Assembly (NCBI GenBank): GCA_963744145.1
Contig: CAVUSO010000001.1
Coordinates: forward strand, 4,064,001 to 4,128,000
Origin: an uncultured cyanobacterium
Lineage (GTDB): Bacteria; Cyanobacteriota; Cyanobacteriia; Cyanobacteriales; CAWUOF01
Direction of reading: 5' to 3'
DNA length: 64,000 nucleotides
The translations under genes and the position numbers were made by a program. The notes under the pieces are model-generated. The model made no database searches. It saw nothing but the letters and a program-made list of their open reading frames with translations, and was not told the DNA's origin. Positions 29,036-49,637 of this stretch are shown here, in pieces (the first letter of the stretch is position 1; each line of letters starts with the position of its first letter).

Positions 29036-30349
29036 ATGTCAAATTTCGCATTTGTTTTGGATACGAATAAACGACCGCTAGATCCGGTTCATCCGGCTAA
29101 AGCACGTTTATTACTCAGTCAAGGAAAAGCGGCTGTATTCAGACGTTATCCCTTCACGATTATCTTGAAAGAGGTTTCCACTGAGGCCATTCAAGAATTA
29201 GAAATTAAGATCGATCCAGGCTCAAAAACTACTGGAATTGCGATTGTTCAAGGTGAGAAAGTAATTTTTGGTGCAGAACTAATTCATCGGGGACAAATGA
29301 TTAAGGCTAGTCTAGAATCTCGGCGTTCACTACGTCGAAATCGAAGAAATCGCCATACTCGTTACCGTCAAGCAAGGTTCTCAAATAGAACCCGTCCTAA
29401 AGGATGGCTAGCACCTAGTTTACAACACCGAGTTGAAACGACTGTACGGGCGTATTGCAATACGCCCCTACGGGTAAAAAAATTAATCAAATTAGCACCA
29501 ATTAGCTCAATTGCGATGGAGTTGGTAAAGTTTGATTTACAGCAAGAAGAAAATCCAGAAATAACAGGAATAGAGTACCAGCAAGGAGAGCTACGAGGCT
29601 ACGAAGTGCGCGAATACCTACTAGAAAAATGGGAGAGAAAATGCGCCTATTGTGGAGCAGAAAATCTGCAACTACAAGTAGAACATATTCAACCCAAGGC
29701 TAAGGGCGGTAGCGACCGAATCTCAAACCTTTGTTTAGCTTGCGAAAAATGTAATCAAAAGAAAGGTACTCAATCGATTGAGAAGTTTCTGGCCAAGAAA
29801 CCAGAAATTTTAAAACGCATATTAGCTCAAGCCAAACGGCCATTAAAAGATGCAACGGCAGTTAATTCAACTCGATGGGCATTGTTCAATAGGCTTAAAG
29901 AAACTGGATTACCTGTTGTGACTGGTTCTGGTGGATTAACAGTAGGGGCGTATTGCAATACGCCCGTACATCGGATTCGGTTAAATTTCTCAAAAGCGCA
30001 TTGGATTGACGCTGCTTGTGTAGGCAAGATTGAATCACTGAAGTTACTAACAGCTAAACCATTGTTGATTAAAGCCACTGGTCACGGAACTAGACAAATG
30101 TGCCGGACTAATGAGTTTGGATTTCCGACTAAATACATCCCTAGATTCAAATTTGTTAAAGGGTTTCAAACAGGCGATATCGTCAAAGCAATTGTCACCA
30201 AAGGGAAAAAAATCGGCAAATATGTCGGTCGGGTAGCAATTAGGACAAGAGGTTCATTCAACATTTCAGCTTCCAAATTAGTGACTGATATTAATCATAA
30301 ATACTGCCAGATCGTCCACCATAAGGATGGGTACAATTATGGGTTTTAA
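29036..30349 (+). CDS. iscB: RNA-guided endonuclease IscB (RRXRR + HNH)
   Basis: PLMP-like FVLDTNKRPLDP, RuvC-I IDPGSKTTG, Arg-rich bridge helix, RuvC-II MELVKFD, HNH CAYC..VEHIQPKAKGGSDRISNL..CEKCN and RuvC-III HWIDA. Confidence 0.95.
   Translation: MSNFAFVLDTNKRPLDPVHPAKARLLLSQGKAAVFRRYPFTIILKEVSTEAIQELEIKIDPGSKTTGIAIVQGEKVIFGAELIHRGQMIKASLESRRSLRRNRRNRHTRYRQARFSNRTRPKGWLAPSLQHRVETTVRAYCNTPLRVKKLIKLAPISSIAMELVKFDLQQEENPEITGIEYQQGELRGYEVREYLLEKWERKCAYCGAENLQLQVEHIQPKAKGGSDRISNLCLACEKCNQKKGTQSIEKFLAKKPEILKRILAQAKRPLKDATAVNSTRWALFNRLKETGLPVVTGSGGLTVGAYCNTPVHRIRLNFSKAHWIDAACVGKIESLKLLTAKPLLIKATGHGTRQMCRTNEFGFPTKYIPRFKFVKGFQTGDIVKAIVTKGKKIGKYVGRVAIRTRGSFNISASKLVTDINHKYCQIVHHKDGYNYGF
29444..29471. 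repeat. 28-bp GTAG/REP-like palindrome, copy 1 (in iscB)
   Basis: GTACGGGCGTATTGCAATACGCCCCTAC. Confidence 0.9.
29942..29969. repeat. 28-bp GTAG/REP-like palindrome, copy 2 (in iscB; exact reverse complement of copy 1)
   Basis: GTAGGGGCGTATTGCAATACGCCCGTAC. Confidence 0.9.
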
Positions 30350-30379
30350 TTTACAAATTGTTCAATCGTCTCCCGCTCT

Positions 30380-30403
30380 TGTTTCGACTACGCTCAACAC
30401 AAG
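30380..30403 (+). repeat. Variant 24-nt mini-repeat in the 3' end of the IscB element
   Basis: TGTT-TCGACTACGCTC-AACA-CAAG has the same core as the 14.6-kb repeat with a swapped stem. Confidence 0.7.
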
Positions 30404-30511
30404 GTTTTTGCTATGCAAAAATTTGTTTAGGAGACGTTTCATAATTTGCCTTCCATTCCTCCCGACACCAAACTGGGTACAGTTATGGTGCGGGTCTCCT
30501 GGGAGGCTTTG

Positions 30512-30982
30512 ATGGTAAATTTAATCTGGCACGATCCGGCGATTATTCGCCATACCCAATATCTCTTGAACAGTTTTCGTGATTGGACTGGTCAAACCTT
30601 GCTGGAAGAAGGAACGCCCCAAGTTCAAGCCCAGCAGCTTTTTGAGTCCCCTTTCGTGATTGTGTCTCATGGTGTAGAAACCGACCCCATTTTTAACTAT
30701 GGTAATCAAACAGCCTTAGATCTTTGGGAAATGACCTGGGAACGTTTTACCTCTTTACCCTCCCGTCACAGCGTCGCTCCTGATGAGCAAACCGATCGGG
30801 AAAAACTCTTGGCTCAAGCCCGCTCCTTGGGCTACATTACTAACTACACTGGAATTCGCATCTCCGCTACGGGTCGTCGCTTTTACATTCAAAATGTAAT
30901 TCTCTATGATGTACTAGATGAAAATCAACATCGCATCGGGCAGGCTGCTACCTTTCCTACATGGAAGTTTTTGGAAGATTGA
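30512..30982 (+). CDS. MEKHLA domain protein
   Basis: LLNSFRDWTG, LFESPFVIVSHG..DPIFNYGNQTALDLWE and YTGIRISATGRRF. The ATG abuts the right end of the IscB element. Confidence 0.9.
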   Translation: MVNLIWHDPAIIRHTQYLLNSFRDWTGQTLLEEGTPQVQAQQLFESPFVIVSHGVETDPIFNYGNQTALDLWEMTWERFTSLPSRHSVAPDEQTDREKLLAQARSLGYITNYTGIRISATGRRFYIQNVILYDVLDENQHRIGQAATFPTWKFLED

Positions 30983-31060
30983 AATCGCAAAAAGTGGATA
31001 ATATTTGATTGCTGCATTTGTTGAGTAATAAATGGCTCAGGGCGAGAAAATTATGAAAAT

Positions 31061-31495
31061 TTACTCAGGAACTTGGACAAGATGAATAATTGGAGTTCCT
31101 AAACGAGTAAAGTGATTAGGATTGAGTGTCAGGATAACAGCAACCTCTGCTTTCAGTGCAGATTGGGCGATTAAAGCATCAAAAATACCGCCACCTGGAA
31201 TATTTAAGGTTGCCATTTGAGCGATCACTAATTGATAATCATTGGCTAGCAGTGGAATGGCTTCAATGTACTGTAAAACATCTACAATAATACTATGAGC
31301 TTGTGGGGAGGAAATACGTGGTTGAATTGGTAAGCGTGTGATGACAGAATAGGTTTCTGCTAGAGTGTGAGTTGAAATAAATCCTTGAATTTGTTTAGAT
31401 TCTGCTGCTTGAAGCATTGGGAAACAAACAGAATGCTTTGGATGATTGACAATTAATGCAGACACCAAAACAGAAGTATCAAATAAGACTTTCAT
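31061..31495 (-). CDS. PIN-domain (VapC-like) toxin
   Basis: MKVLFDTSVLV, HTLAETY, IFDALIA and LTLN. Confidence 0.88.
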   Translation of the reverse strand: MKVLFDTSVLVSALIVNHPKHSVCFPMLQAAESKQIQGFISTHTLAETYSVITRLPIQPRISSPQAHSIIVDVLQYIEAIPLLANDYQLVIAQMATLNIPGGGIFDALIAQSALKAEVAVILTLNPNHFTRLGTPIIHLVQVPE

Positions 31496-31794
31496 AAAGC
31501 CATTATATCTTGAATACGTTCTTCTCTTAAATCATCTATGAAAGTATTCAAATTAAAACTTTCTGGTAATTGTGCATCTAACACTAAAACACCTTCTTTT
31601 CGATAGATTTTTGCTTGGTTAGATGCCAGGATATGGTGTAATTCTGAGGTTTGTTCAGGGTATTTTTTAGCCGCTTTCTGACTCAATGCTTCAATTTTTT
31701 CGGCAACAGCTTGACTGATTAGCTGTTCTGGTGAGATTCCCTGAATGGTTGCCCATTTTTCGATATTTTTTTGTAGTTCAGGAGGAAATTTCAT
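31492..31794 (-). CDS. Putative antitoxin
   Basis: Small ORF overlapping the PIN gene start (ATGA), with C-terminus IDDLREERIQDI. Confidence 0.65.
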   Translation of the reverse strand: MKFPPELQKNIEKWATIQGISPEQLISQAVAEKIEALSQKAAKKYPEQTSELHHILASNQAKIYRKEGVLVLDAQLPESFNLNTFIDDLREERIQDIMAL

Positions 31795-31931
31795 AGAAAT
31801 CAACGTTAAAATTAAGAAAATCAAAAAAGCGATCATCTGCAAGTATTTTAATTTTATCAGAGCCAGAGACAAACCGCAATATTTTTGCTATAGTAGTCAT
31901 AGCTGCCTGAGCTAAAAATACCTGAGTGCGA

Positions 31932-32942
31932 TCATATTCTTCTATCAACAAGACAAAGCTGAATTAAATTTTCAGCTCTTTGCTCTAATTGTTGTCTGTA
32001 AATTAAACCTTCGATCCAAGCAGATTTTATTTCTTGATAACCAAATCTTGCTCCTAACAATGCACCAGCAACTGCTGCATTAGTGTCTGCATCTCCACCT
32101 TCATGAATGATGGTGAGAATACCTTCTGTAAATGTTTTTGCATGACGCAATGCCCAAAAACCTGCTGCTAAGGTTTTGAGAGTGTAGCCATAAGTAACCT
32201 TCTCGTGACTATTTAGTCCTTCATCTAAATCTAATACTGCTATTGAATCAGCTTGTGTTTTTTGGAAATAGGTGTTCATTTCTGGATGGTATTCTTCAAC
32301 TTCTTTAGCGATCGCATCAACTAACTTATCTAGATCTTGTTCTCCTTGTAATAGCTGACTAATTGCTAAACAAACAGCGACACAAGATCCAATACAACGG
32401 GGATCTGCATGAGTTATTCGACATACTGTTTCAGCATTAAAACGAACTTTTTCTGGTTCTAAATATTGCCAAATACCAAGGGGTGAAGTTCTCATAACTC
32501 CGCCATTTGGGGCTGATTTTCTTCCCTTAGATTCCCAATATTCTTCAGATGCTAAATGGGGATTTTTGAGAAATTCTGAATGATGAATAACATTATAGAT
32601 TGTTCCACCAATCCCAAAACCATCGGTTTGAGCCCAATGATGAAACCTTGCAGCAATATCATAAATATTGATAGATTGATGAGTAATTATACTGTCAAGA
32701 ATACAAAGCATTTGGTCTGTATCATCTGTCCAATCTCCTGGAGACCAACGTGGATCATCAAGTTGTTCAAATTCGTTGGTAATTTTAGAAAAAAATCTTA
32801 AGTCAGAATAATTGTGTAATCCATTCGGAAAGGTGAAATCAACCTCAGCACGAGATAAGAATTCAGTACCAATACCAAGTGCATCTCCTACAGCTTGACC
32901 AAATAACACCCCACGAATTTTATCTATAACTATCAAATTCAT
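31932..32942 (-). CDS. ADP-ribosylglycohydrolase family protein
   Basis: GQAVGDALG, WTDDTDQ, NGGVMR, ITHAD and GGDADTNAAVAGALLGA. Confidence 0.93.
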   Translation of the reverse strand: MNLIVIDKIRGVLFGQAVGDALGIGTEFLSRAEVDFTFPNGLHNYSDLRFFSKITNEFEQLDDPRWSPGDWTDDTDQMLCILDSIITHQSINIYDIAARFHHWAQTDGFGIGGTIYNVIHHSEFLKNPHLASEEYWESKGRKSAPNGGVMRTSPLGIWQYLEPEKVRFNAETVCRITHADPRCIGSCVAVCLAISQLLQGEQDLDKLVDAIAKEVEEYHPEMNTYFQKTQADSIAVLDLDEGLNSHEKVTYGYTLKTLAAGFWALRHAKTFTEGILTIIHEGGDADTNAAVAGALLGARFGYQEIKSAWIEGLIYRQQLEQRAENLIQLCLVDRRI

Positions 32943-33044
32943 AATATATTCTGTAAAGTTTACTAGATACTATATTATATGGCTAATATTCTGTCTACTA
33001 TTGAGTGCTGATCGGCTATCTATCATTTACCGGGGCAATAAATT

Positions 33045-33686
33045 ATGGCAATTTATCTTGATTCGGCGATTATATCTGAAGCTGAAGCGGTAAGTAAATT
33101 CGGTTGGGTATCGGGAATTACTACTAATCCCACACTTTTAGCCAAAAGTAATTTACCGCCAGATGCGACCCTAAAGAAACTTGCACAACTAACTGCTGGG
33201 GAGGTATACTATCAGATTATCGCCCCTAATTTTGAGGGAATGGTAGCAGAAGGAAAAGCTGCATTTCAATTAATTGGACAACAAACTGTATTGAAACTAC
33301 CAGCAACAGCGGTGGGTTTTCAAGCAGTGGCACATTTGTCACCGGATATTCCTTGTGCGGTAACTGCGATCTATAGTCCAGCACAAGCAGTGGTAGCAGC
33401 AGCAGCGGGGGCAAAATATGCAGCAGTTTATGTGAATCGGGCTACTAGAATTTTAGGAGATGGTATGGCTTTGGTACGGGATCTGGCAAGTGTTTTGAAG
33501 GGAAGTAATACGGAAATTTTAGCAGCAAGTTTGAAATCTCCAATGGAAGCGGTGGCAAGTTTACAAGCGGGTGCAAATCATTTGACACTCAATTTTGAGG
33601 TATTGCAAGCAATGGGATTCCATGAACTATCGGAGCAAACTATTGATGAATTTGCGAAAAATGGGCGGGGAATTGGTACTGTCTAG
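33045..33686 (+). CDS. Transaldolase family protein (TalC/FSA-like)
   Basis: IYLDSA, GITTNPTLL, LKLP and ILAASLK. Confidence 0.9.
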   Translation: MAIYLDSAIISEAEAVSKFGWVSGITTNPTLLAKSNLPPDATLKKLAQLTAGEVYYQIIAPNFEGMVAEGKAAFQLIGQQTVLKLPATAVGFQAVAHLSPDIPCAVTAIYSPAQAVVAAAAGAKYAAVYVNRATRILGDGMALVRDLASVLKGSNTEILAASLKSPMEAVASLQAGANHLTLNFEVLQAMGFHELSEQTIDEFAKNGRGIGTV

Positions 33687-33761
33687 GATTGAGTGCGATC
33701 GCTGGCTTGTTGGGTTTGGGGAGTGCGATCGCTATTAGTAATAGATTAGAGCTTTTAGAGC

Positions 33762-35138
33762 TTACAGGTTACAAGTCTTGGCGCGAGAGAAAACTCGGTG
33801 AAACCCAATCACAAATTCCTTCAAAACAGGGAGATGACCTAGAGCAGCGGTGGTGTTAAAAGTTAGATCACTATAGTTCAACCACTTGCCTCCTTTTTTC
33901 CATCCTACTTTTTCACCAAATTTGTGTTCAATCTCTATTACAGCATTGGGATAACCACCAACATCTTTACTTTCCCATATCTGTTTTTGAACGCTGATCC
34001 CAAAATGACCATTAGAATATTTTACCCATAAGTTATCTATAGTCTGAAGGTCTTTACAAGGAAACTTTAACCAATCATCACCAGTGAGATATCCTTCTTT
34101 TTCACGATTAGCAGCTTCAAGTACAAGACGGTAAGTTTTCTTATCAGCCTCTTTCCATATCCCAGCAGCTAATAAATTAAGCAGAGGAGTGTAATCTATT
34201 TTTCTTTCACTTTCAAGAATAATTTGAGGTGTTTTAGGTAATGACTTAGGATTAAGTTCTTGCAATACTTCACTAGTAGACTGATAGCGATCGTCTAAAG
34301 GAATCGATATCATTTTATCTAAAATAATACTCAAATCACTGCTCACATTAGCATATTGCTGCCATACCCATTTCATCTTATAAAAATCAAACAACTTGTC
34401 TATATTATTACCATTTTCTTCTTCTAATAAACAACCCGTTAAAAGCCGAATACAAGTAACACCTAAACCATATAAATCACTAGCAGGAAAAGTCTGTCCC
34501 TGTAATTGTTCTGGAGCTGCATAACCAGGAGTACCAACCGTTGTACCTATTTTGGTCATTACAGTACCGCTTAATTGTTTCGATACTCCAAAGTCAATCA
34601 GCATCAAACGATTATTAACATCTCTAATAATGTTCTCTGGTTTAATATCTCTATGGATTACATTCTTTTGATGCACAAACTCTAAAACAGGTAAAAGTTG
34701 ATTTAATAAATCTCTAATCTTTTCCTCATTAAATTTTCCGTTCTGTTTTAGTTCTTCTAATAAATCTTTTCCATCAATAAATTCTTGAACTAAATATAGC
34801 CGTCCATCTTGTTCAAGGAATGCTAATAAGTCAGGTATTTGAGGATGTTTACCTAAGTCTCTTAATCGGATAGCTTCTTGTTTAAATAATTCTGTAGCTT
34901 TTTGTAATGCTCCACTACCTTGTAACTGAGGTAAAAATTGCTTAATCACACAGAATGTATCTAATCGTTGTTCATCTATTGCTTTGAATGTTTTACCAAA
35001 ACCGCCCTCTCCAAGAAATTCTACTGCTCGATAGCGATGCGAGAGTAATAACTTATTTCCACAAGATTGACAGAATTTCCAATCAGGTGGATTGTTAATA
35101 TTATTGCATTCAGGAGTTAGACATAAACATTGATTCAT
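33762..35138 (-). CDS. Ser/Thr protein kinase with C-terminal GUN4 domain
   Basis: LGEGGFGKT, HRDIKPEN, DFG and GTPGYAAPE. GUN4 motifs WKEADKKT and FPCKDLQTIDNLWVKYSNGHFGISVQ. Confidence 0.93.
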   Translation of the reverse strand: MNQCLCLTPECNNINNPPDWKFCQSCGNKLLLSHRYRAVEFLGEGGFGKTFKAIDEQRLDTFCVIKQFLPQLQGSGALQKATELFKQEAIRLRDLGKHPQIPDLLAFLEQDGRLYLVQEFIDGKDLLEELKQNGKFNEEKIRDLLNQLLPVLEFVHQKNVIHRDIKPENIIRDVNNRLMLIDFGVSKQLSGTVMTKIGTTVGTPGYAAPEQLQGQTFPASDLYGLGVTCIRLLTGCLLEEENGNNIDKLFDFYKMKWVWQQYANVSSDLSIILDKMISIPLDDRYQSTSEVLQELNPKSLPKTPQIILESERKIDYTPLLNLLAAGIWKEADKKTYRLVLEAANREKEGYLTGDDWLKFPCKDLQTIDNLWVKYSNGHFGISVQKQIWESKDVGGYPNAVIEIEHKFGEKVGWKKGGKWLNYSDLTFNTTAALGHLPVLKEFVIGFHRVFSRAKTCNL

Positions 35139-35423
35139 ATCTAATTGCCCTTTTTATTATTCAACGGTTTTACGGGCTCAGTCATGACTTTTTTGGGCAT
35201 TGTGGGTATTTCACAAAACTCGCGTACTCATTCTAATGTATAACCGGGCAAACGTCTAGTAGCCATTATTTGGCCAAGTTTGTGAAAGTCCAACCCAAAC
35301 CAGGAACCATCTGGGAATACCTTTGGGTCTTTGGTATCATAACTAGGTCTTGTGAGTGCGATCGCTTATTTTAACAAAAGACCAGCTATATAATGGTTGA
35401 GTAATCAACTACTGGTAAAGTTT

Positions 35424-36404: not shown

Positions 36405-36701
36405 TCGAATGAGAATAGTCCCATTAATAAAAAATTAAGTGAGCTAGAGTCTCAGTTATCAAATAATAATCAAGAGCGATCGCCCGATCTAGATTTGATT
36501 AATATTAAATTAGCTGAGTTAGAGTCCCAATTATTATGATTCTTTTGGTTGTGTTTTGTTTCGGGAAGTGAAGGGCGATCGCTTCTAGATTTTGAGAATG
36601 AAATGCGATCGCCCTTAATCCCCTACTCTAATTAATGTTGGTCAGAGGTGAGCGCGATCGCCGAAACCTAGCTCAAAAAATATTTGGGAGGATGACTAAT
36701 T

Positions 36702-36926
36702 TCATTGCTGATGGAACGGAGCTAAATTTGAGCTATCATGATTCTTCGGGTCGCAGTTATATACATTCCCTTGATCATCATGACATGTATTTTCATTCAG
36801 TGATATATTTAATTTCACATTTGAGTCTTTTTGAAGTGCGATCGCTGAAGCTGAATTGGCATTCATCAACACAATTATACCCATAAAAAGCGAAAGGATT
36901 GGGGATATTATCAGAATCAATTTCAT
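36702..36926 (-). CDS. Small putative secreted protein
   Basis: Signal-peptide-like MKLILIISPILSLFMGIIVLMNANSASA. The mature part has two Cys. AGGAA lies upstream. Confidence 0.45.
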   Translation of the reverse strand: MKLILIISPILSLFMGIIVLMNANSASAIALQKDSNVKLNISLNENTCHDDQGNVYNCDPKNHDSSNLAPFHQQ

Positions 36927-37286
36927 AAGTTATTTCCTAGTTAGTAAATCAATTTTTAGCCTTCTTAATTAACTATTAGGAAAAATCTGGAATAATATGC
37001 ACCAGTCAGAAAAATTTTCCCAATCATAATTGCTATCCCCAGAAAATAATCGGCAAATCATTATGTGAAAAAAGTCTGGAATAGATCACAGACTATTTGC
37101 TGCTGATTACAGCTTCCGAAGAGTGACAAGCACTCAATATTGTCAAACCAACTAAATAGACTAGGTAGTAACAGTCCAATGTTGGTCTAATATATAATTG
37201 TTAAAAGTTTAAGTTTTTATGCAAAAATGCTAAATTTTTGATCTAAAATTAGAATAGTAACACACTTGCACCAAAACCCTACTATT

Positions 37287-38086: not shown

Positions 38087-38259
38087 ATTGGTTATTCCTG
38101 TCCTGGAAGTTGCAGGACTAAACAATTAGATCTATATATATTTAGACGATCATAGTCTGGGGAGGTTCCGGAGTAACTCAAAAATATTAATGCTATCAAT
38201 ACATATAATAGGAATCAAATCCGATTTTGTCGATCAATTACTAGAGAGATCAAGGTAAT

Positions 38260-41424: not shown

Positions 41425-41427
41425 ATT

Positions 41428-43422
41428 ATGGAACAATTATCTTTACCTTTAGTTTTTGCCAATACATTACCAGAGCAATTAATATGGTTCAAGGAAATAT
41501 TAGCCTTTCTGAATATTAATCCTAATCTTAATTGGCCCGATGCTTTTGGATTATCGTTGCGTAACTACTTTACTAAAAGTAACTATACACCCATTAAAAC
41601 TTTAAGTTTATTTACAGGAGGAGGGGGACTTGATATCGCTTTCCATGATGCTGGTTTTGATATTGTGCAAATGGTAGAGTTAGAAGCTAAATATATTCAA
41701 ACTCTTTTAAAAAATTCTCAGCCAGGAAGATTGTTAGAAAATTCTCAGCCTATTTGCATTGATATTAGAGAGTATTTTCCCAATTCTGAACTAGCAATAG
41801 ACTTTATCATTGGCGGACCACCATGTCAAACTTTTTCCGCTGCGGGCAGAAGAGCGTCAGGTGTTGCTGGACTTAGTGATACTAGAGGAATGCTATTTGC
41901 AGAATATGTTCGCTTAATCAAAATACTGCAACCAAAAGGATTTCTTTTTGAAAATGTTTATGGTATAACTGGTGCTGAAAATGGCGAAGCCTGGAAAAAA
42001 ATCCAAAATGCTTTTAAACAAGCAGGATACCAAATTAATTTTCGCGTTTTAGATGCAGCAGATTACGGAGTACCACAACATCGAGAACGTTTATTTATTG
42101 TCGGAATTAAAGAAGGTAATTATTTATTTCCCTCTCCTACTCATGGTCCTGATTCACCAGGACAAATACCTTTTTATTCAGCTGGAGCAGCAGTTATTGG
42201 TGCTGATCCATCGGACGCAGAATTAGGAATTAGTGGGAGGTATGGATATTTGCTCAATGATATACCACCAGGACTTAATTATAGCTTTTACACAGCAGAG
42301 ATGGGGCACCCTCAGCCTGTATTTAGTTGGCGTTCTAAATTTTCTGATTTTCTTTATAAAGCTGATCCAGAGCTTCCAGTTCGGACAATTAAAGCCCAAG
42401 GTGGACAATACACTGGTCCTTTTAGTTGGGAAAATCGTCGTTTTACAATTGCGGAATTAAAGCGTCTACAAACGTTTCCTGATGCTTATGAAATTGTTGG
42501 TAATCGTTCTAGCTGTATCGAACAAATTGGTAATTCAGTTCCACCACAATTAGGGAGGATTTTAGCTCTGAGTATTTTGGAGCAAGTCATGAATATATCT
42601 CTCCCATTTTCCATGCACTATTTACCACCAACAAAACAGTTAGGATTTCGACAACGCAAACGTCAATTAACTCAGAGATATGCTCAAAAAGCTCAAGCTG
42701 CGATCGCCTTCTTGAAAAGTAATGGTAAATTCAGTTCATCCGCTTCCCCTCATCCGAGATTATCAGAAAAATCTGTACGGTTTTTATCTGAAAATTTTGC
42801 TTGGAGTAAAAATGAAACTTGCCTGAGTACCAAAATTTTTCTGAAGTATGATTTTCAACCAGAAAGCTGGATAATTGAAGCTAATCTTAATGATATTTGG
42901 GAGATTGAAGGTAAATATATAATTGATATTTCATCAGCTAATGGTTGTGAAAATTGGGGTTTAGATACAACCCAAGTAAAATTAATAGCTAGGGATTTAG
43001 ATGGGCGAATTTTTACAGCTTTATGGAAAGCATTCGAGGAAAAATTAACTGAATTGACTCGCAAAGCTGATTTAGTACAATTATCTGGTTATTACCAATA
43101 TAAACCGCATCTAAATAGCAAAATGACAATTAATGATCAATTAAAGAATGACAAATTTTGGCAAATCATTCAATGTCTAATTAATGGAATAGGAGTAGCA
43201 AATCAATTATCTAAACAGCAGCTTGCTTTTCTTTGGGGAGTTAATAATAATGAAATATTTTCCTATTTAAAAAGATTAAGAATTATGGGTTACGAAATTA
43301 GGAATCATCAGACAAATCCTCAGATTAATCCGGGAGAATATTTAATTCCTTATGCTTTTCCGACGCTAACACCCAAAAGTGTGCAATTACGAAAAACCTT
43401 GGGAGAAAATGATGATGAGTGA
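41428..43422 (+). CDS. DNA (cytosine-5)-methyltransferase with a long C-terminal extension
   Basis: Motif I LFTGGGG, IV GGPPCQ, VI FENV, VIII PQHRER, IX RLQTFPD and X QIGNSVPP, followed by ~270 extra residues. Confidence 0.9.
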   Translation: MEQLSLPLVFANTLPEQLIWFKEILAFLNINPNLNWPDAFGLSLRNYFTKSNYTPIKTLSLFTGGGGLDIAFHDAGFDIVQMVELEAKYIQTLLKNSQPGRLLENSQPICIDIREYFPNSELAIDFIIGGPPCQTFSAAGRRASGVAGLSDTRGMLFAEYVRLIKILQPKGFLFENVYGITGAENGEAWKKIQNAFKQAGYQINFRVLDAADYGVPQHRERLFIVGIKEGNYLFPSPTHGPDSPGQIPFYSAGAAVIGADPSDAELGISGRYGYLLNDIPPGLNYSFYTAEMGHPQPVFSWRSKFSDFLYKADPELPVRTIKAQGGQYTGPFSWENRRFTIAELKRLQTFPDAYEIVGNRSSCIEQIGNSVPPQLGRILALSILEQVMNISLPFSMHYLPPTKQLGFRQRKRQLTQRYAQKAQAAIAFLKSNGKFSSSASPHPRLSEKSVRFLSENFAWSKNETCLSTKIFLKYDFQPESWIIEANLNDIWEIEGKYIIDISSANGCENWGLDTTQVKLIARDLDGRIFTALWKAFEEKLTELTRKADLVQLSGYYQYKPHLNSKMTINDQLKNDKFWQIIQCLINGIGVANQLSKQQLAFLWGVNNNEIFSYLKRLRIMGYEIRNHQTNPQINPGEYLIPYAFPTLTPKSVQLRKTLGENDDE

Positions 43423-44734
43423 AATACATTTGCGTGTATTTAAAAATCGAAGTGAGTTAGTGCGATCTGATGGAACAACACAGGTTTTCTTAGAGGGTAG
43501 CATGAATGAAGCAGCAAAAGCTAGATATCAAAAAATAGCTAATGAATTATCAAATAGTTATCTCGAAAAGCAAATCATGATTTGTTATGAGCATCCTGCT
43601 GATCTAGTTTTTTCTCAATTAAAAGAGAATCATATAAATATTTTGACTAGACTGGTAAATTCAGTTACAAGTGAAGTTGGTAGAGCCATAGTTGGGTTAA
43701 CTATTTTGCAATTATCGGTGAAATCAATTGAACCTATGCAAAGTATTAGGTTGCACAAAGGTAGTTCTAGCGTAACAGCTTTTTCATGGTGTGATGGAAT
43801 ATCAATGCGTTCTTTAGATAAGCAATATATCACTCCTATTTTACGAAAATATGACTTACTTAGACTGAATGCGGATGGTTTTATGATGACTCGCAGTTTA
43901 GCAGAAAACTATCCTTATTCACCAGTGTATAAAGCTAATATTAAAGGTGCGCGTCAAGAGTGGCTAAATCTTGTAGAATATATAGAAGTTAATGAAATTG
44001 ATCCTAAATTAGCTTTACATTACATTTTATCTCAATTACTGAATCGAGCAAATGTGTTTAAAATTTTATCTGAACAAACTATCTTATCTCTACAAACATT
44101 TTTAGAGCTAACTAAATCTTGTTTAAATAGAGAATATGCTACTCAATTGATCACAACACATATTAATGAATCCAATTATGCAGCGCGAATTATGGAAATT
44201 GCTATGCACAGTCTGATGCAAACTATGCAAGAATATATGATTTTTTTACCGGGAGAATTACAATCTTTATCTCAAATGCGATCGGCTAATAAAAAACATG
44301 GTAATATTGGAGATATCGAAATCTTAGAAAATGGACAAATTGTTGAAGTATGGGATGCAAAATATGGCAAAAGTTATTTAAGAGATGAACTAGAAGAGTT
44401 AAACGATAAACTTGGTTCTCACCCAAGTGTTTTATTAGCTGGTTTTGTTACGAGTGTTGAACCTGAACGACGTGAAGAGCTAATCCCTCGCTGTCAAGAA
44501 ATAGCAGATTTTTTTGGGATTACAATAGAAATAGTTACTTTTAGAGAATGGATACAACAGCAATTTCAACGAGCAATTAAATCTGAGTTAGTCAACGAGC
44601 AACAATTAGCACAGAAATGGTTAATTGCTTACACAGAATCATTAGCCCAAAAACGTCGAGATATTGCTCCTATTGACGAACCTTGTCAACAATGGTTAAC
44701 TACTTTAAAGCTTTTACTTGAAACTTATAAATAA
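43409..44734 (+). CDS. Putative type II restriction endonuclease (PD-(D/E)xK-like)
   Basis: Overlaps the MTase stop. Candidate catalytic motif GNIGDIEI...VWDAKYG. Confidence 0.55.
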   Translation: MMMSEIHLRVFKNRSELVRSDGTTQVFLEGSMNEAAKARYQKIANELSNSYLEKQIMICYEHPADLVFSQLKENHINILTRLVNSVTSEVGRAIVGLTILQLSVKSIEPMQSIRLHKGSSSVTAFSWCDGISMRSLDKQYITPILRKYDLLRLNADGFMMTRSLAENYPYSPVYKANIKGARQEWLNLVEYIEVNEIDPKLALHYILSQLLNRANVFKILSEQTILSLQTFLELTKSCLNREYATQLITTHINESNYAARIMEIAMHSLMQTMQEYMIFLPGELQSLSQMRSANKKHGNIGDIEILENGQIVEVWDAKYGKSYLRDELEELNDKLGSHPSVLLAGFVTSVEPERREELIPRCQEIADFFGITIEIVTFREWIQQQFQRAIKSELVNEQQLAQKWLIAYTESLAQKRRDIAPIDEPCQQWLTTLKLLLETYK

Positions 44735-44923
44735 TTCAAATATTACTCCTATTTAAGCATCTTGCTAAATCTGTTTGACTATGGAAAGATGTCTTTTAAG
44801 AGACTGGTTAAGTTATGGGCTTCAGAGTGAGGGCCAAAAGCGCGATCGCTAGCTAGTAAATTTTTTCCCTGATGGTGAAACCCCTACTATAAACTCAAGT
44901 TCCAGTTTTTGATCCAAATAATT

Positions 44924-44954
44924 GCGATCGCTTACCCAATAGATAGGATAATTC
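44924..44954 (+). repeat. 31-bp HIP1-anchored direct repeat, left copy
   Basis: GCGATCGCTTACCCAATAGATAGGATAATTC, 29/31 identical to 46775-46805. Confidence 0.85.
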
Positions 44955-44964
44955 TAATTTAAAA

Positions 44965-45813
44965 ATGCTTGTAACTGACATGATAAATTTTTTAGGTAAA
45001 CCCTACTTTCAAGCACCCAATTGCTTGATTTATCAGATGGATTGCTTAGAGGCAATGTTAAAGCTACCAAATGAATGTATTAATCTTACTGTCACCAGTC
45101 CTCCGTATAATATTGGCAAAGAATACGAAAAAATAATGCTACTAGATCAATATTTAAAATGGTGTGAAAAGTGGATAAGTGAGATTTACCGAATTACCTC
45201 TTCTCAAGGAGCTTTTTGGCTAAACTTGGGTTATTTATCAATTCCTAATAGAGCTAAAGCAATTCCTATTCCTTACCTACTGTGGGACAAAATTTCTTTT
45301 TACCTCATTCAGGAAGTAATCTGGCACTATGGTGCTGGAGTTGCTGCCAGTAAGTTTTTTTCACCACGTAATGAAAAGTTTCTTTGGTATGTCAAAAACC
45401 AAGAAAGTTATACCTTTAACTTAGATGATGTGCGCGATCCTAATGTCAAATATCCTCATCAAAAAAAGAATGGCAAAATTAAAGTCAACCCCCAAGGCAA
45501 AAATCCGACAGATGTTTGGGATTTTCCCAAAGTAACATCTGGTCAAAACAGATCGTCGAAAGAGCGTACTGATCACCCTGCTCAATTTCCTAGGGCTGTT
45601 ATAGAACGTATTATCAAGGCTTCATCCCATCGAAATGAAATTATTTTAGACCCTTTTCTGGGTTCAGGAACTACTGCGGTTGTTGCTTTAGATTTGCAGC
45701 GTACTATCATTGGATTTGAGATTTGTAAAAGCTACTGTGATATAGCTGCTAATAGAATTGATGATTTTCTCAGACAAAAACAGCTTAGTGAAGCTCAATT
45801 ATCTTTATTTTAG
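44965..45813 (+). CDS. Site-specific DNA methyltransferase, beta class (probably N4-cytosine)
   Basis: TSPPY precedes HPAQFP and LDPFLGSGTT. Confidence 0.9.
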   Translation: MLVTDMINFLGKPYFQAPNCLIYQMDCLEAMLKLPNECINLTVTSPPYNIGKEYEKIMLLDQYLKWCEKWISEIYRITSSQGAFWLNLGYLSIPNRAKAIPIPYLLWDKISFYLIQEVIWHYGAGVAASKFFSPRNEKFLWYVKNQESYTFNLDDVRDPNVKYPHQKKNGKIKVNPQGKNPTDVWDFPKVTSGQNRSSKERTDHPAQFPRAVIERIIKASSHRNEIILDPFLGSGTTAVVALDLQRTIIGFEICKSYCDIAANRIDDFLRQKQLSEAQLSLF

Positions 45814-45827
45814 AGAAAATAAATTTC

Positions 45828-46433
45828 TTAAATTGGTAATGACAGTAACTTATATTTTTCTACACCAGGACTTAATCTAGCCTGTTGGCCAGTAGCTGCT
45901 TTTTGTCCTTGCCAATCTTCTAGATCAATCCATCCAAATCGAACTAAACTAATTTTTGGAGTTTGTCTGCATTTAATTTTTGGATCAAATTTCTGGAAAT
46001 TAACTACAAGATAATAGCCAGACTTGTCTTTTTTTGACTTTGATCCTGTGGTACTCTGTTGAGCATAACTGCGATTACCGTAAGTGTTGTGATAACTTGA
46101 AGAAGTTTTAATTTCAATTGAGAAGTAATCGTTCTCAATATAAACAATATCTTTGTCAGTATTGCTATGATGGCGTCGCCAAATTTCCGGGTATCGGTTG
46201 GCTAATTCTAATGGAATTAATTCATGCAAAAAAAAGCCCATAATTTGGGGAACTGGAAATAAATCTACTCCTATTTTGTAGCCTCTATTGGTTATACTGG
46301 ACTGAAAGATTTGATCCCAAACTTGCATAACTATTTGATAAATTTCCTGCGACTCAAGAGGGTGTCTCTCGATGAGTTCCAATGTCTTTGCTTGCCAATC
46401 TTGAATAGGAAGTCCTGTATAAGGTGATTCCAT
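45828..46433 (-). CDS. ScaI-family type II restriction endonuclease
   Basis: SPYTGL..W..KT.ELI..HPL, PQIMGFFLHELIP, KDIVY..FSIEIKTSS and GNRSYAQ. Convergent with the SPPY MTase. Confidence 0.75.
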   Translation of the reverse strand: MESPYTGLPIQDWQAKTLELIERHPLESQEIYQIVMQVWDQIFQSSITNRGYKIGVDLFPVPQIMGFFLHELIPLELANRYPEIWRRHHSNTDKDIVYIENDYFSIEIKTSSSYHNTYGNRSYAQQSTTGSKSKKDKSGYYLVVNFQKFDPKIKCRQTPKISLVRFGWIDLEDWQGQKAATGQQARLSPGVEKYKLLSLPI

Positions 46434-46655
46434 TTACTCCATTCCTCTCAATAGCTCGCTAGGTGACACTCCTAACGCTTTGGCTAACCGCAAAATATTT
46501 AACAGGGCTATGTTTCTCTCACCCCGCCCAATACCACCAAGATAGTTCCGGTGTATACCAGCTAGTTCAGCTAACTCTTCTTGAGAAAGATCCCTAATTT
46601 TTCTTAGTCTGCGAACTTGCTCTCCAAATTTTTTTAACTCTGGATTTTCTGCCAC
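46434..46655 (-). CDS. R-M controller (C) protein, XRE HTH
   Basis: FGEQVRRLR..LSQEELAELAGIHRNYLG..GERNIAL.NI..LAKALGVS, directly upstream of the REase on the same strand. Confidence 0.85.
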   Translation of the reverse strand: MAENPELKKFGEQVRRLRKIRDLSQEELAELAGIHRNYLGGIGRGERNIALLNILRLAKALGVSPSELLRGME

Positions 46656-46691
46656 ATAAGCAAGATACTCATAACAGTGCGCTAAAATCTA

Positions 46692-46706
46692 CACACTATA
46701 AGTGTG
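46692..46706 (-). promoter_or_regulatory. C-box-like operator
   Basis: Palindrome CACACT-TAT-AGTGTG (minus strand), ~37 bp upstream of the C gene start. Confidence 0.6.
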
Positions 46707-46774
46707 ATTTTCTCTGAGGATCACAAAGGAAAATTGTCCCGCAACCAATAAGTGGACAAGGGTATTCATCAACC

Positions 46775-46805
46775 GCGATCGCTTGCCCAATAGATAGTAT
46801 AATTC
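46775..46805 (+). repeat. 31-bp HIP1-anchored direct repeat, right copy
   Basis: GCGATCGCTTGCCCAATAGATAGTATAATTC, which contains TATAAT. Confidence 0.85.
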
Positions 46806-46913
46806 CTTTATCTTGACTGTGCTTTTGGTTGATGAATCTCACTTACTATCAAAAACGGTCAATCAAGATCAAAATAAGCATATTTACTTATAATTAACCC
46901 AGAGGATGACAAA

Positions 46914-48368
46914 ATGGCACTAAGAAATATGGAAAATATACCCGTTTTAGAACAATATTTAGCATCCCTGTCTCAAGCACAGCTATTGGATTTGATTTGG
47001 CAATTATGTGATGAATCTAAAGAAGTAAGAACATTTTTGCTCAATCATATTAATGTGCCCAGAGAAATTATTAATAATCAACCTAGTAATGATGATCAAG
47101 TTGAACAGCTCAAAGAAGAAATTAAGCAAATTTTTGATGAACTTGAAGAGCTAATGATGGAGGAAGATGAAGATGAGTATCGATATGATTATGATTATGA
47201 AGATGAAGATGAGGAAATACTAGAGCCTAAACTAGATAGTGTGTTTGAGACTGCTAGATTTTTAAATCTGGCAGATCAAGTGCAAATATATTGGGAGATT
47301 ATCAGCACAGGAACTGATTTATTTGATCGCATTGAAGACTTTACTATTGGTACTACCCAAATTGAAAAAGCTTTCCAATTTTTTGCGGAAACTATTCAAA
47401 ATTTGGAGTTATCACCTCTAGAAAAACAACCTTATTTGCGGGCACTGGTTGCTCTTTTTGATCGGATTATATTTAGCGATCGGGATATCAGAAAAGCGAT
47501 TAAGAACGCGATGGAACTGATTTGTGATGTTCCGGAAGATTACTACTATTTAATTTCCCAAATGGAGCCAAAAGAAGCTGAAGCTATTGATTGGATTACT
47601 GGTTATTATCTGAAATTAGCTGATCATGAAAACTATCTGCGAGTCCGATCAGCTCATCTTGAGCAAGAATCTGATTATCTCGAATTAGCAAAATATTGGC
47701 AACAAAAAGGAAATTCAGAAAAATATTTAGCGACTCTAGAACAATGGATTATCAATCTAGACTTAGATCCAAAATCATCTAATTATGGATTGAGAAGGTT
47801 TTCGATTGATAGCTATCATTTCGTTGAAAAAAAAGTGTTTGATGAACTAACAGAATATTATCGTCAACAAAAAGATGATGATAATTTAAGTCGAATTTTG
47901 TTAAAAATAGCCGAACATCGTTATGTTACTTTGGATTTGTATAAAGAGGTGAAAGAACTTGGTAATAAGTTAGGTAAATGGCCAGAAATGCAGGTAAGTT
48001 TAATTAAATATGCAGAAAAACATGACGAAATTTTAGCCAAAATATATCTATATGAAGAAAATTGGGACAAAGCTCTGGAAATTACCCAAAAAAGTAATAT
48101 TCATGAAGGAATTCAAGTGGTAATTGCGGAGGGAGTTAAACAAAATCGTCCCTTTGAGGCGATCGCAATTTACGAAAAAATAGTTGAATATAATATTGAC
48201 CAAAGAAAACGCGATCGCTATCGTCAATCTGCGACTTATGCTAATAAAATTAAAGCCATTTATTTGCAGGTGTTAAATGATCCAGATGGTTGGCACCGTT
48301 ATCTGAGTACAATTAGAGAAAATCATCGTCGTTTGCCAGCTTTAATTGATGAATTTAGAAGTTTTTGA
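46914..48368 (+). CDS. Hypothetical alpha-helical protein
   Basis: 484-aa acidic helical ORF. The C-terminus RYRQSA....KIK....W..YL..IR..HRRLPALIDEF resembles the C-terminal region of SWIM-finger-associated proteins. Its stop codon is supplied by the end of the TnpB element. Confidence 0.65.
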   Translation: MALRNMENIPVLEQYLASLSQAQLLDLIWQLCDESKEVRTFLLNHINVPREIINNQPSNDDQVEQLKEEIKQIFDELEELMMEEDEDEYRYDYDYEDEDEEILEPKLDSVFETARFLNLADQVQIYWEIISTGTDLFDRIEDFTIGTTQIEKAFQFFAETIQNLELSPLEKQPYLRALVALFDRIIFSDRDIRKAIKNAMELICDVPEDYYYLISQMEPKEAEAIDWITGYYLKLADHENYLRVRSAHLEQESDYLELAKYWQQKGNSEKYLATLEQWIINLDLDPKSSNYGLRRFSIDSYHFVEKKVFDELTEYYRQQKDDDNLSRILLKIAEHRYVTLDLYKEVKELGNKLGKWPEMQVSLIKYAEKHDEILAKIYLYEENWDKALEITQKSNIHEGIQVVIAEGVKQNRPFEAIAIYEKIVEYNIDQRKRDRYRQSATYANKIKAIYLQVLNDPDGWHRYLSTIRENHRRLPALIDEFRSF

Positions 48369-48398
48369 CACTCCCCGGTCTTTCATACACGGGGATTC

Positions 48399-49637
48399 TT
48401 AAGGTAAGGGCGTATTGCTATACGCCCCTTCAGGGGATGAATCGCGCCAAAGCTTTTTTCTTAAAGGGTTCGTCAGCAACCCACTACCCACTCGCTCAAC
48501 AATAGAGTCTGTGGCTACTTTTGATTTTCTAATGATATTAGCCGCACCGTTAACATCTGCATTCAGAATTAATCCTTGAGCAGAACGATACAAACCTCTT
48601 TTTATCCTTTTTCCAGATGGTTGCCAATTGTCAGGTTTTTCGCCGACTGTCACTGGCAATAAATCTCGGTCTAAGAAACTGGATTTTGATGTGTAAGATT
48701 CGTCTTGTTCTATGAATCGCCATCCCCTTAGATCGCATTCTTGCTGTAGTCTCTCCTTGACTTTGGCTGTGGGGATTTGGTAGGGGCGTATTGCAATACG
48801 CCCGTACTGATTGGTTACTCTTCCCATATTAACTTCTTGTTTCTGTCCTTTATTCCAACCAAAGACGATCACATTGATTTGATGATTTTCGCAGTATTTT
48901 ATGATAGTTCTCACCGCTTTATTCACTGCATCTCTCATCCTTCTAGCGCGAGTTTCTGACAACTGTTGTAGCCGTTTTGATGAAAAACCTTTGGGTAATT
49001 TAGCTTGAGAGTGCCTGGTTTGGATTCGGGCTTTTTCTTGGTTAAACAGTTGATTCCAAGACTTGATTTTGCGACCATCAATGATGAATGGTTTGCCATT
49101 ACTAGAAACACAAGTTAACCAGTTGTTTATCCCATGATCTATTCCTAGAATTCCTGTTACTCCTAAGCTACAACTAAGTGCTTGTTTGGTCAGAGATTCA
49201 TGGACATATTCAACCCAGACATCACCATTTCTGGGGATTAGCCTGAGTTCTTTAATTTGGCAATCTCTCAATCTTTCCGGCCATGTCAACCACAGGGCAT
49301 CAGTTCCGAAATGTTCTTTGCCTTTAGTCCCTAGAGGTAATCTCACCCGATTGTCAACTATTTTTAGAGCTTGTCCTGGATAGGAAATTTGATATTTGCC
49401 GCCCTTAACTCTGTATTTAGGTAGTCTTGGCTTTTGGTTAAGTTTTCCTGTCTTGGCTAACTTTTCCAGGGCTAGAAAAGAACTAAAGGATTCTGCTACA
49501 GACTTAAGAGTTTGTTGTGCCACTTGAGAGTAAAGAAAACCGTAATTTTCGTTAGTTTTTGCCATCTTGTACAGCTCAAGATACTTAATTACTTTTTGAT
49601 CTTTAAAGTACCGTTTGTCTTTTTGGACTGCGTACAT
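48399..49637 (-). CDS. tnpB: RNA-guided endonuclease TnpB
   Basis: SQVAQQTLKSVAESF, PRLPKY, RuvC-I GIDHGINN, DESYTSKSSFLD and RuvC-III NADVNGAANI. The real start is MYAVQ at 49637; the upstream part of ORF 48399..49796 runs into IS630 sequence. Confidence 0.9.
   Translation of the reverse strand: MYAVQKDKRYFKDQKVIKYLELYKMAKTNENYGFLYSQVAQQTLKSVAESFSSFLALEKLAKTGKLNQKPRLPKYRVKGGKYQISYPGQALKIVDNRVRLPLGTKGKEHFGTDALWLTWPERLRDCQIKELRLIPRNGDVWVEYVHESLTKQALSCSLGVTGILGIDHGINNWLTCVSSNGKPFIIDGRKIKSWNQLFNQEKARIQTRHSQAKLPKGFSSKRLQQLSETRARRMRDAVNKAVRTIIKYCENHQINVIVFGWNKGQKQEVNMGRVTNQYGRIAIRPYQIPTAKVKERLQQECDLRGWRFIEQDESYTSKSSFLDRDLLPVTVGEKPDNWQPSGKRIKRGLYRSAQGLILNADVNGAANIIRKSKVATDSIVERVGSGLLTNPLRKKLWRDSSPEGAYSNTPLP
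48404..48431. repeat. 28-bp palindrome, copy 4 (3 mismatches), at the tnpB 3' end / omegaRNA region
   Basis: GTAAGGGCGTATTGCTATACGCCCCTTC. Confidence 0.8.
48780..48807. repeat. 28-bp palindrome, copy 3 (in tnpB)
   Basis: GTAGGGGCGTATTGCAATACGCCCGTAC, identical to 29942-29969. Confidence 0.9.

What the first reader, a model, noticed from the sequence alone, without database searches (positions are those of the whole stretch)
29444..48807. One 28-bp palindrome repeatedly inserted, frame-preserving, into both RNA-guided nuclease genes (iscB twice, tnpB twice)
Seen: GTAGGGGCGTATTGCAATACGCCCGTAC or its exact reverse complement occurs at 29444-29471, 29942-29969 and 48780-48807, with a 3-mismatch copy at 48404-48431. 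All four full-length copies I found in 64 kb lie in iscB or tnpB (~2.5 kb together). They add VRAYCNTPLR and VGAYCNTPVH to IscB and YGRIAIRPY to TnpB without breaking frame. Against recalled family consensus (IscB ETT-LTW-VK and GLT-KFN-R; TnpB NQ-xFV-QIP), each insert replaces about 3 codons (net +7, +7, ~+6). Established: GTAG-plus-hairpin is the REP architecture mobilised by HUH tyrosine transposases (RAYT), relatives of IS200/IS605 TnpA, and tiny mobile repeats (SDRs) are known in cyanobacteria. Inference: this may be a minimal parasite that preferentially lands in or hitchhikes on OMEGA elements. It could attenuate the nucleases or mark tolerant surface loops.
Basis: partly seen in the sequence, partly recalled or inferred. 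Interest (0 to 1): 0.8.

Follow-up and report, generated by a model that had tools for sequence, protein, structure and literature searches.

The report
REP hairpin repeat inside iscB and tnpB
The 28-base palindrome is a known kind of tiny bacterial repeat (a REP hairpin moved by a RAYT enzyme) that has landed in frame in two RNA-guided nuclease genes, with no sign elsewhere that it specialises in such genes.

Summary
The 28-mer occurs exactly at 29444-71, 29942-69 and 48780-807, with a 3-mismatch copy at 48404-31, and nowhere else in the window. All four copies lie in an IscB gene or a TnpB gene.

Uninterrupted homologues show that each copy replaces 7-10 nt. The net changes are +21, +21, +18 and +18 nt, all in frame.

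The palindrome is not specific to cyanobacteria or to OMEGA elements. Its edges are sharp (GTAGG...CCTAC) and its flanks are unrelated.

In several phyla it flanks, or sits in frame inside, RAYT genes with the subclass 2.4 motifs. This is the published "double foot" REP, and in-frame intragenic REPs are already documented.

Elsewhere I found no link to IscB or TnpB:
- 0 of 124 loci
- 0 of 22 cyanobacterial copies
- 0 of 238 close IscB/TnpB homologues

The local 4-of-4 clustering stays unexplained. Verdict: a new instance of a known kind, of moderate interest.

The parts
29444..29471 (-). REP copy 1. Exact 28-mer on the - strand; reads GTAC...CTAC on the iscB coding strand and encodes VRAYCNTPL(R).
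   Evidence: In one search it replaces 7 nt (CTGACCT in the O. nigro-viridis homologue), net +21 nt.
29942..29969 (+). REP copy 2. Exact 28-mer, inverted relative to copy 1; encodes VGAYCNTPV(H).
   Evidence: In one search it replaces 7 nt (AAATACA in the homologue), net +21 nt. One search shows the two iscB copies as a 35-nt inverted pair, 94% complementary.
48780..48807 (+). REP copy 3. Exact 28-mer; on the tnpB coding (-) strand it is read one base out of register and encodes YGRIAIRPY.
   Evidence: In one search it replaces AACTTTGTC (9-10 nt), net +18 nt.
48404..48431 (-). REP copy 4. Older and degenerate (3 mismatches). It covers the last codons of tnpB and lies in the region that encodes the omegaRNA scaffold.
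   Evidence: In one search it replaces AAAGTTTGTC (10 nt), net +18 nt. Sequence stays conserved with the homologue up to ...GGGGAGTGTCAA at about 48365.
29036..30349 (+). iscB, 437 aa. Full length and otherwise intact; 85% identical to its nearest relative, which is 423 aa.
28781..29016 (+). HEARO RNA, the IscB omegaRNA. Full-length match to the model.
   Evidence: RF02033, 124.8 bits, model positions 1-211 of 211.
48399..49736 (-). tnpB, 445 aa as held in the protein collection. The first ~45 residues are aberrant and the usual start is not conserved.

Best explanation
The 28-mer is a 'double-foot' REP: a GTAG-footed hairpin whose 3' end is the reverse complement of its 5' foot. REPs of this kind belong to the RAYT (TnpA-REP) subclass 2.4 system.

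Shown here:
- It is a discrete 28-nt unit found in about 20 phyla with unrelated flanks.
- In other genomes it flanks RAYT genes bearing the subclass 2.4 motifs, and it sits in frame inside them just after the HUH motif.
- In this window four copies have replaced 7-10 nt of an IscB gene and a TnpB gene, adding 6-7 codons each.
- Three of the copies are identical down to an asymmetric foot (GTAG...GTAC), so they are recent copies of one master. The fourth is older.

Inferred:
- A RAYT encoded elsewhere in the 7.6-Mb chromosome cuts and ligates the hairpin as single-stranded DNA, and a short stretch of target is lost at insertion.
- Copies persist in these two genes because solo OMEGA elements are dispensable and in-frame alleles leave an open reading frame.
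- The inserts remove conserved residues, so they more likely damage the nucleases than decorate them.

The concentration in the two OMEGA genes is a local feature of this window, not a property of the repeat family.
For: Unit and spread:
- 76 of 129 unique copies have perfect GTAGG...CCTAC feet. Flank complementarity beyond the 28 nt is 10-46% per position, about background.
- An 18-mer should occur by chance only about 9 times in 596 Gb (my arithmetic).
- As single-stranded DNA the copies fold at -8 to -9.8 kcal/mol, z -3.5 to -5.1.

Link to RAYT:
- A RAYT ORF from L015 finds relatives at 8 places among the loci. Seven are strong, of which six overlap or adjoin the palindrome and L071 adjoins a copy that has other feet; L051 is weak.
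- In L015, L104, L103, L002 and L089 the REP lies in frame just after the HUH motif. The motifs NH[IFLM]H, WQ and YIxNNP are present.
- A cyanobacterial RAYT (L124) has the REP about 75 nt upstream of its start.
- 5 of the 120 best RAYT relatives carry the same REP peptide, including a cluster that one source names as a transposase of Anabaena azotica.
- NCBIfam's REP-associated tyrosine transposase model scores 59-68 bits.

Literature, read as passages:
- Quentin 2018 (PMC6006769) describes double-foot REPs and in-frame REPs inside subclass 2.4 genes.
- Di Nocera 2013 (PMC3733652) describes in-frame intragenic GTAG REPs.

In-frame copies inside unrelated genes:
- Copies sit within TrpE, Lgt, an Eco57I-type methylase and two T9SS sorting domains, and before the C-terminal domain of a TonB protein.

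Junctions.

No OMEGA link elsewhere.
Against: - No RAYT gene lies in the 64-kb window. None of the 120 best RAYT relatives comes from the 7,634,710-bp contig. The enzyme is therefore assumed for this genome, not shown.
- All four copies fall in 2.7 of 64 kb and none is intergenic, although most copies elsewhere are. Uniform placement gives about 3e-6. Allowing only ~16 kb of dispensable DNA gives about 8e-4. Two seeding events followed by local copying give about 0.03 (my arithmetic, post hoc). Tolerance alone does not explain this well.
- Four of four net changes are multiples of three (1/81 by chance), including the copy in the last codons, where selection for frame should be weak.
- The RAYT hits fall below NCBIfam's equivalog cut-off of 80 bits.
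- No known HUH transposition mechanism deletes 7-10 nt of target.
Confidence: 0.72

Rival explanations
1. Real targeting. The REP integrates preferentially into IS200/IS605-family OMEGA elements. One possible reason is that these elements pass through single-stranded circles handled by a sister HUH transposase. The result is nucleases that are attenuated or disabled.
For: All 4 copies in the window lie in the two OMEGA genes and none is intergenic. Three identical copies sit in two elements 19 kb apart. The inserts replace nearly invariant residues. The two tnpB targets share TTTGTCC at the right junction.
Against: None of 124 loci elsewhere holds an IscB or TnpB relative. None of 84 ORFs near 22 cyanobacterial copies has such a domain. 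None of 238 close homologues carries the peptide. No tnpA lies in the window. The conservation argument is weak, because most columns in these close alignments are conserved.
Confidence: 0.13
2. Imported with the elements. Both OMEGA elements picked up their REPs in a REP-rich donor genome and arrived by horizontal transfer already carrying them. The present genome need not have an active RAYT.
For: The window has no intergenic copies. The nearest relatives of both genes that carry a name are from Microcoleus and Kamptonema. Both genes are single copy in the protein collection. The N-terminus of tnpB is degenerate.
Against: Three copies identical over 28 nt in two separate elements imply recent events while the two elements shared a genome. 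I could not identify the window's own taxon (one search was unavailable).
Confidence: 0.1
3. A selected function rather than parasitism. The hairpins could act as RNA stabilisers or attenuators within the nuclease mRNAs or the omegaRNA, or the added peptides could modulate the proteins.
For: The frame is kept in 4 of 4 copies. One copy lies in the omegaRNA region. Di Nocera 2013 argues that many REPs are transcribed and act as RNA.
Against: The inserts are private to this genome. They replace conserved residues. The same unit sits in unrelated genes and spacers across phyla.
Confidence: 0.05

Closest known systems
'Double foot' REPs of TnpA-REP/RAYT subclass 2.4 (Bertels group 4), Quentin et al. 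2018, PMC6006769
   Same: A 5' GT[AG]G foot, a long hairpin and a 3' C[TC]AC foot. [quoted passage not shown] The subclass is found in cyanobacteria, Bacteroidetes and scattered phyla. RAYT motifs are NH[IFV]H, WQ and YIxNNP (matched).
   Different: The hosts here are IscB and TnpB genes, which the passages I read do not mention. The cognate RAYT of this genome was not seen. The figures with REP sequences are not held, so identity with a published consensus could not be checked.
Intragenic GTAG REPs, Di Nocera et al. 2013, PMC3733652
   Same: GTAG-tagged palindromes lie entirely within ORFs and encode extra residues without breaking the frame. Some genes are hit twice, and cyanobacterial families exist (GTAG-12, -15, -16).
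   Different: That paper stresses replication and repair genes. This 28-mer and its peptides do not appear in the four supplements held as text. The family number cannot be assigned without Figure 1.
REPINs (Bertels and Rainey 2011)
   Same: Non-autonomous units built from inverted REPs and replicated by a single-copy RAYT. [quoted passage not shown]
   Different: This unit is 28 nt with no spacer. What I know of REPINs comes from a search listing and abstracts only, and their typical length from recall.
Small dispersed repeats (SDR) of Nostoc, Elhai et al. 2008
   Same: From recall only: units of 21-27 nt, some forming hairpins, nested in heptamer repeats and minitransposons. Here, copies in Trichormus (L012, L042) and Dolichospermum (L055) lie among heptamer-like repeats, and five to seven copies sit inside a MITE-like element.
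   Different: The paper is not held, so membership is untested. This repeat reaches far beyond the Nostocales.

Membership tests
REP of the RAYT subclass 2.4 system (double foot) | 5' GT[AG]G foot, hairpin, 3' C[TC]AC foot | tested here: met
   (76 of 129 copies are GTAGG...CCTAC); hairpin fold. The window's variant is GTAG...GTAC.
REP of the RAYT subclass 2.4 system (double foot) | Dispersed copies with sharp ends and unrelated flanks | tested here: met
   across about 80 assemblies; four copies in the window.
REP of the RAYT subclass 2.4 system (double foot) | The same REP flanks or interrupts a RAYT gene with NH[IFV]H, WQ and YIxNNP motifs | tested here: met
   Met in other genomes. NCBIfam REP_Tyr_transpos scores 59-68 bits, below its cut-off of 80.
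REP of the RAYT subclass 2.4 system (double foot) | A cognate RAYT in the same genome as these four copies | not testable with these tools
   No Y1_Tnp ORF in the window. The source chromosome was not available, and none of the 120 best RAYT relatives comes from its contig.
REP of the RAYT subclass 2.4 system (double foot) | Cleavage and joining of the hairpin by RAYT | not testable with these tools
   This needs biochemistry.
IscB OMEGA element | RRXRR/RuvC plus HNH protein with a HEARO omegaRNA upstream | tested here: met
TnpB OMEGA element | OrfB_IS605 plus TNB domains, and a conserved 3' end that encodes the omegaRNA | tested here: met
   The N-terminal ~45 residues are aberrant. No Rfam family matched the 3' RNA.
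PATE/MITE derived from IS200/IS605 ends | The repeat equals the end hairpins of the host IS | tested here: not met
   The copies are internal to the genes and absent from 238 close homologues and from the O. nigro-viridis elements.
CRISPR repeat | Regularly spaced array with short spacers | tested here: not met
   Within each gene the copies start 498 and 376 nt apart and lie inside coding sequence.
Cyanobacterial SDR (Elhai 2008) | Match to one of the eight SDR consensus sequences | not tested
   The paper is not held.

The most novel reading that the evidence does not exclude
RAYT-driven REPs preferentially integrate into IS200/IS605-family elements while those exist as single-stranded transposition intermediates. 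They do so by a reaction that swaps 7-10 nt of target for the 28-nt hairpin. The effect is to overwrite conserved motifs of IscB and TnpB and part of the omegaRNA. One HUH system, possibly domesticated by the host, would then be disarming the RNA-guided nucleases of another.
Probability: 0.1. Interest if true: 0.8.

Novelty: new member of a known kind. Interest (0 to 1): 0.42.

Why it matters
As it stands, the finding adds IscB and TnpB to the list of genes that carry in-frame REPs. It also gives four nucleotide-level junctions for such insertions: 28 nt in, 7-10 nt out.

Two side results may interest people who work on REPs:
- One exact 28-mer is shared by about 20 phyla.
- It travels inside the reading frame of its own presumed transposase, which would explain both its spread and its conservation.

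If the local clustering reflects real targeting, it would show interference between two HUH-based mobile systems and a natural way of disabling OMEGA nucleases. The evidence from other genomes argues against that.

Tried and rejected
- AlphaFold2 of IscB with 42 sequences gave a poor model (mean pLDDT 44.6, pTM 0.23), so I drew nothing from it.
- The TnpB model is moderate (pLDDT 67.6, pTM 0.51). It puts most of the insert (first 8 of 9 residues) in a low-confidence coil (residues 299-318), which is too weak to call it a surface loop.
- phmmer of TnpB against the PDB found nothing at E<=1e-5.
- The IscB match to solved IscBs covers insert 1 but gives no domain labels.
- Text searches for the 16-mer and for the three peptides found no paper. 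The 9-mer hits listed were all on unrelated subjects (170 papers held the term, 20 were listed).
- Di Nocera's four supplements held as text lack the sequence.
- Elhai 2008 could not be read.
- The plasmid collection holds only two weak matches to the 28-mer.
- I considered that the feet might derive from the target. I rejected this because three copies in three different targets share the same asymmetric feet.
- I considered that the palindrome extends into its flanks or inserts into existing hairpins. I rejected this because flank complementarity is at background.
- I checked whether tnpB is frameshifted at its 5' end. No other frame matches better.
- The MITE-like carrier found in other cyanobacteria is absent from the window.


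Full report
OBSERVATION

The 28-mer GTAGGGGCGTATTGCAATACGCCCGTAC occurs exactly at 29444-29471 (- strand), 29942-29969 (+) and 48780-48807 (+). A copy with 3 mismatches lies at 48404-48431 (-). No shuffle of the window gave any match. The 18-nt core with up to 3 mismatches is found at these four places only. A scan for other GT[ACG]G-footed palindromes in the window found none.

ORF 29036-30349(+) is IscB: RRXRR 6.5e-70 plus HNH, and guided_IscB at 444 bits. A full-length HEARO RNA, its guide RNA, lies just upstream at 28781-29016 (124.8 bits). ORF 48399-49796(-) is TnpB. The window is 39% G+C and holds 62 HIP1 octamers, so it comes from a cyanobacterium. The protein collection places both genes on a contig of 7,634,710 bp.

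JUNCTIONS

Of the 119 best IscB homologues, 112 are 423 aa long, against 437 aa here. The alignment shows LTW replaced by VRAYCNTPLR and KFN replaced by VGAYCNTPVH, +7 aa each.

In TnpB, NFV is replaced by YGRIAIRPY (+6 aa). The last residues KVCP are replaced by EGAYSNTPLP (+6 aa).

I aligned the DNA with uninterrupted homologues on an Oscillatoria nigro-viridis plasmid (L125, L126). The 28 nt stand in place of:
- CTGACCT (7 nt)
- AAATACA (7 nt)
- (G)AACTTTGTC (9-10 nt)
- AAAGTTTGTC (10 nt)

The net changes are +21, +21, +18 and +18 nt. These homologues are only 70-81% identical in protein to the window's genes, so the lost bases are approximate. The two tnpB targets share TTTGTCC at the right junction.

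The fourth copy lies 39-66 nt from the point where similarity to the homologue stops (...GGGGAGTGTCAA, about 48365). That is inside the stretch that encodes the omegaRNA scaffold in TnpB elements. The location of the omegaRNA there is established knowledge of the family; no Rfam model matched it.

None of the 238 close homologues (119 IscB, 119 TnpB) carries any of the peptides. The inserts are therefore real and private to this genome. Each gene sits alone in its 90% identity cluster (1 member, 1 contig), and no other protein among the best 120 hits of either search comes from the source contig.

WHAT THE PALINDROME IS

I scanned one genome for each of 185,579 species with the 18-nt core. By my count of accession prefixes and titles, they come from about 80 assemblies and about 20 phylum-level groups. 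These include Planctomycetota, Omnitrophota, Atribacterota, Sumerlaeota, Nitrospirota, Chloroflexota, Bacteroidota, Patescibacteria and Cyanobacteriota. Chance would give about 9 sites in 596 Gb (my arithmetic).

Of 129 unique copies with 25-nt flanks, 76 read GTAGG-core-CCTAC. The flanks are unrelated to each other, and left and right flanks pair at only 10-46% per position. The unit therefore ends sharply at 28 nt. As single-stranded DNA it folds at -8 to -9.8 kcal/mol.

An ORF spanning the palindrome in L015 (Zixibacteria) is a Y1 HUH transposase. Local tblastn with it found relatives at 8 places among the loci. Seven are strong (41-64% identity) and one, L051, is weak. In L015, L104, L103, L002 and L089 the REP lies in frame just after the HUH motif (...MPNHIHGII-[RGVLQYAPT]-...RSPSQTIG...). 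The motifs NH[IFLM]H, WQ and YIxNNP are present. In a cyanobacterial genome (L124) the REP and a loop variant lie within about 75 nt upstream of the RAYT start.

A database search with that N-terminus gave 5,654 relatives at E<=1e-10. Among the best 120, five carry the same REP peptide, among them a cluster that one source names as a transposase of Anabaena azotica. Most of the others carry different REP-like peptides at the same place, such as VGAHRRAPN, RGVCDTPLR and VGANGRSPL.

All this matches published descriptions. Quentin et al. 2018 define RAYT subclass 2.4 by NH[IFV]H, WQ and YIxNNP. They describe 'double foot' REPs (5' GT[AG]G ... C[TC]AC 3') and REPs inserted in frame inside the RAYT genes. 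They place the subclass in cyanobacteria, Bacteroidetes and scattered phyla (passages read). Di Nocera et al. 2013 list many GTAG REPs lying in frame within genes, sometimes twice in one gene (sections read). Neither text, as far as I could read it, mentions IscB or TnpB as hosts. A search for RAYT, TnpB and REPIN together listed no paper on this (two passages checked).

IS THERE A PREFERENCE FOR OMEGA GENES?

Outside the window I found none.
- Of 85 unique copies in loci of 2 kb or more, 34 lie in a stop-to-stop frame of at least 150 aa. Of these, 21 have a Pfam match, and none is IscB or TnpB.
- The clear in-frame cases are within TrpE, Lgt, an Eco57I-type methylase, two T9SS sorting domains and the RAYT itself, and before the C-terminal domain of a TonB protein. 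Many of the other 34 sit at the very start of the frame and are probably upstream of the real start codon. One (L053) is a bare core without feet and is probably native coding sequence.
- Six IscB and TnpB queries hit none of the 124 loci at E<=1e-4.
- Around 22 copies in six other cyanobacterial assemblies, none of 84 ORFs of at least 80 aa within 1.2 kb has an OrfB_IS605, RRXRR or TNB domain. One lone 153-aa HNH ORF lies about 350 nt from a copy.

Against this stands the window itself. All four copies lie in 2.7 of 64 kb and none is intergenic. Uniform placement gives about 3e-6. Restricting to about 16 kb of dispensable DNA gives about 8e-4. Two hits followed by local copying give about 0.03. 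These figures are my arithmetic and the category was chosen after the fact. I cannot resolve this without the rest of the chromosome.

FRAME

The consensus palindrome is open in two of three frames on either strand; the third frame holds TAG. The GTAC foot opens that third frame, which is the one tnpB uses.

Because 28 is not a multiple of three, a simple insertion would always shift the frame. The in-frame state comes from the 7- or 10-nt loss. Four of four would occur by chance 1 time in 81. Selection on the reading frame is the plain explanation and fits the in-frame cases in housekeeping genes. However, the last-codon copy and the signs of decay in tnpB weaken it here, so a mechanistic cause is not excluded.

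EFFECT ON THE NUCLEASES

The residues replaced are nearly invariant among relatives: T138/W139 and K310/F311/N312 in IscB, flanked by invariant T309 and R313, and N317/F318/V319 in TnpB. This does not look like a variable surface loop.

The first ~45 residues of TnpB are aberrant. A BLAST alignment of the first 80 residues gives 50% identity with gaps, nearly all of it from the conserved second half, against about 80% over the whole protein, and the usual start codon is not conserved. The rest of IscB and its HEARO RNA look intact.

The structure models did not help.

VERDICT

The repeat is a known kind of element, a double-foot REP of the RAYT subclass 2.4 system. The new points are its hosts, the exact junctions and its reach across phyla. 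The claim of a dedicated parasite of OMEGA elements is not supported by other genomes. It stays open only because of the local clustering.

NOT CHECKED
- The source chromosome.
- Elhai 2008.
- The figures of the two key papers.

Noticed in passing
L015:2189-2836, L104:1-645, L103:49-609, L002:2549-3262, L089:1-618: The same REP sits at the same place (just after the HUH motif) in RAYT genes from five different phyla. The enzyme's presumed substrate thus travels inside its own reading frame. That could explain why the 28-mer is identical across phyla while the proteins are only 41-64% identical.
   Followed up: partly
L022, L045, L084, L024, L047 (variants L057, L026), around the palindrome: In three cyanobacterial assemblies the REP lies at the centre of an element of about 85-90 nt with inverted ends (TAGACATCTCC...GGAGATGTCTA). 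This looks like a MITE carrying the REP, so here the REP does hitchhike on another mobile element. The element is absent from the window.
   Followed up: partly
Proteins P0242-P0361 (RAYT relatives): The variable stretch after the HUH motif is made of REP-like peptides that differ between proteins and are often repeated in tandem, such as VGAHRRAPN, RGVCDTPLR, GRGELHSPL and VGAGFKPA. This suggests many REP 'alleles' within one enzyme family.
   Followed up: no
L012, L042 (Trichormus sp. NMC-1), L055 (Dolichospermum): Copies here are embedded among heptamer-like tandem repeats (AGGAGTC/AGGAGTT). From recall, this resembles what Elhai described for SDRs.
   Followed up: no
window 49500-49800 (- strand): The 5' end of tnpB is degenerate. 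The usual ATG is not conserved, about 8 codons are missing, and identity over the first ~45 residues is low. No other frame matches better.
   Followed up: yes
window 29444-29471 with 29942-29969; 48404-48431 with 48780-48807: In both genes the two copies are in opposite orientation (458 and 352 nt between them), like a very wide REPIN. The iscB pair brackets the HNH-coding segment. This may be chance (1 in 4).
   Followed up: no
window 41428-46433: A cluster of restriction-modification genes lies just upstream of the tnpB element: a C5 cytosine methylase, an unassigned 451-aa ORF, an N6/N4 methylase and a ScaI-type endonuclease.
   Followed up: no
window 49899-50993: A DDE_3 (IS630-like) transposase ORF abuts the 5' side of tnpB, so three mobile-element genes lie within 22 kb.
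   Followed up: no
window 23248-26065 and 60467-63775: Two large ORFs carry TPS (two-partner secretion) domains. A PIN-domain ORF with a small upstream ORF lies at 31061-31872, which may be a toxin-antitoxin pair.
   Followed up: no
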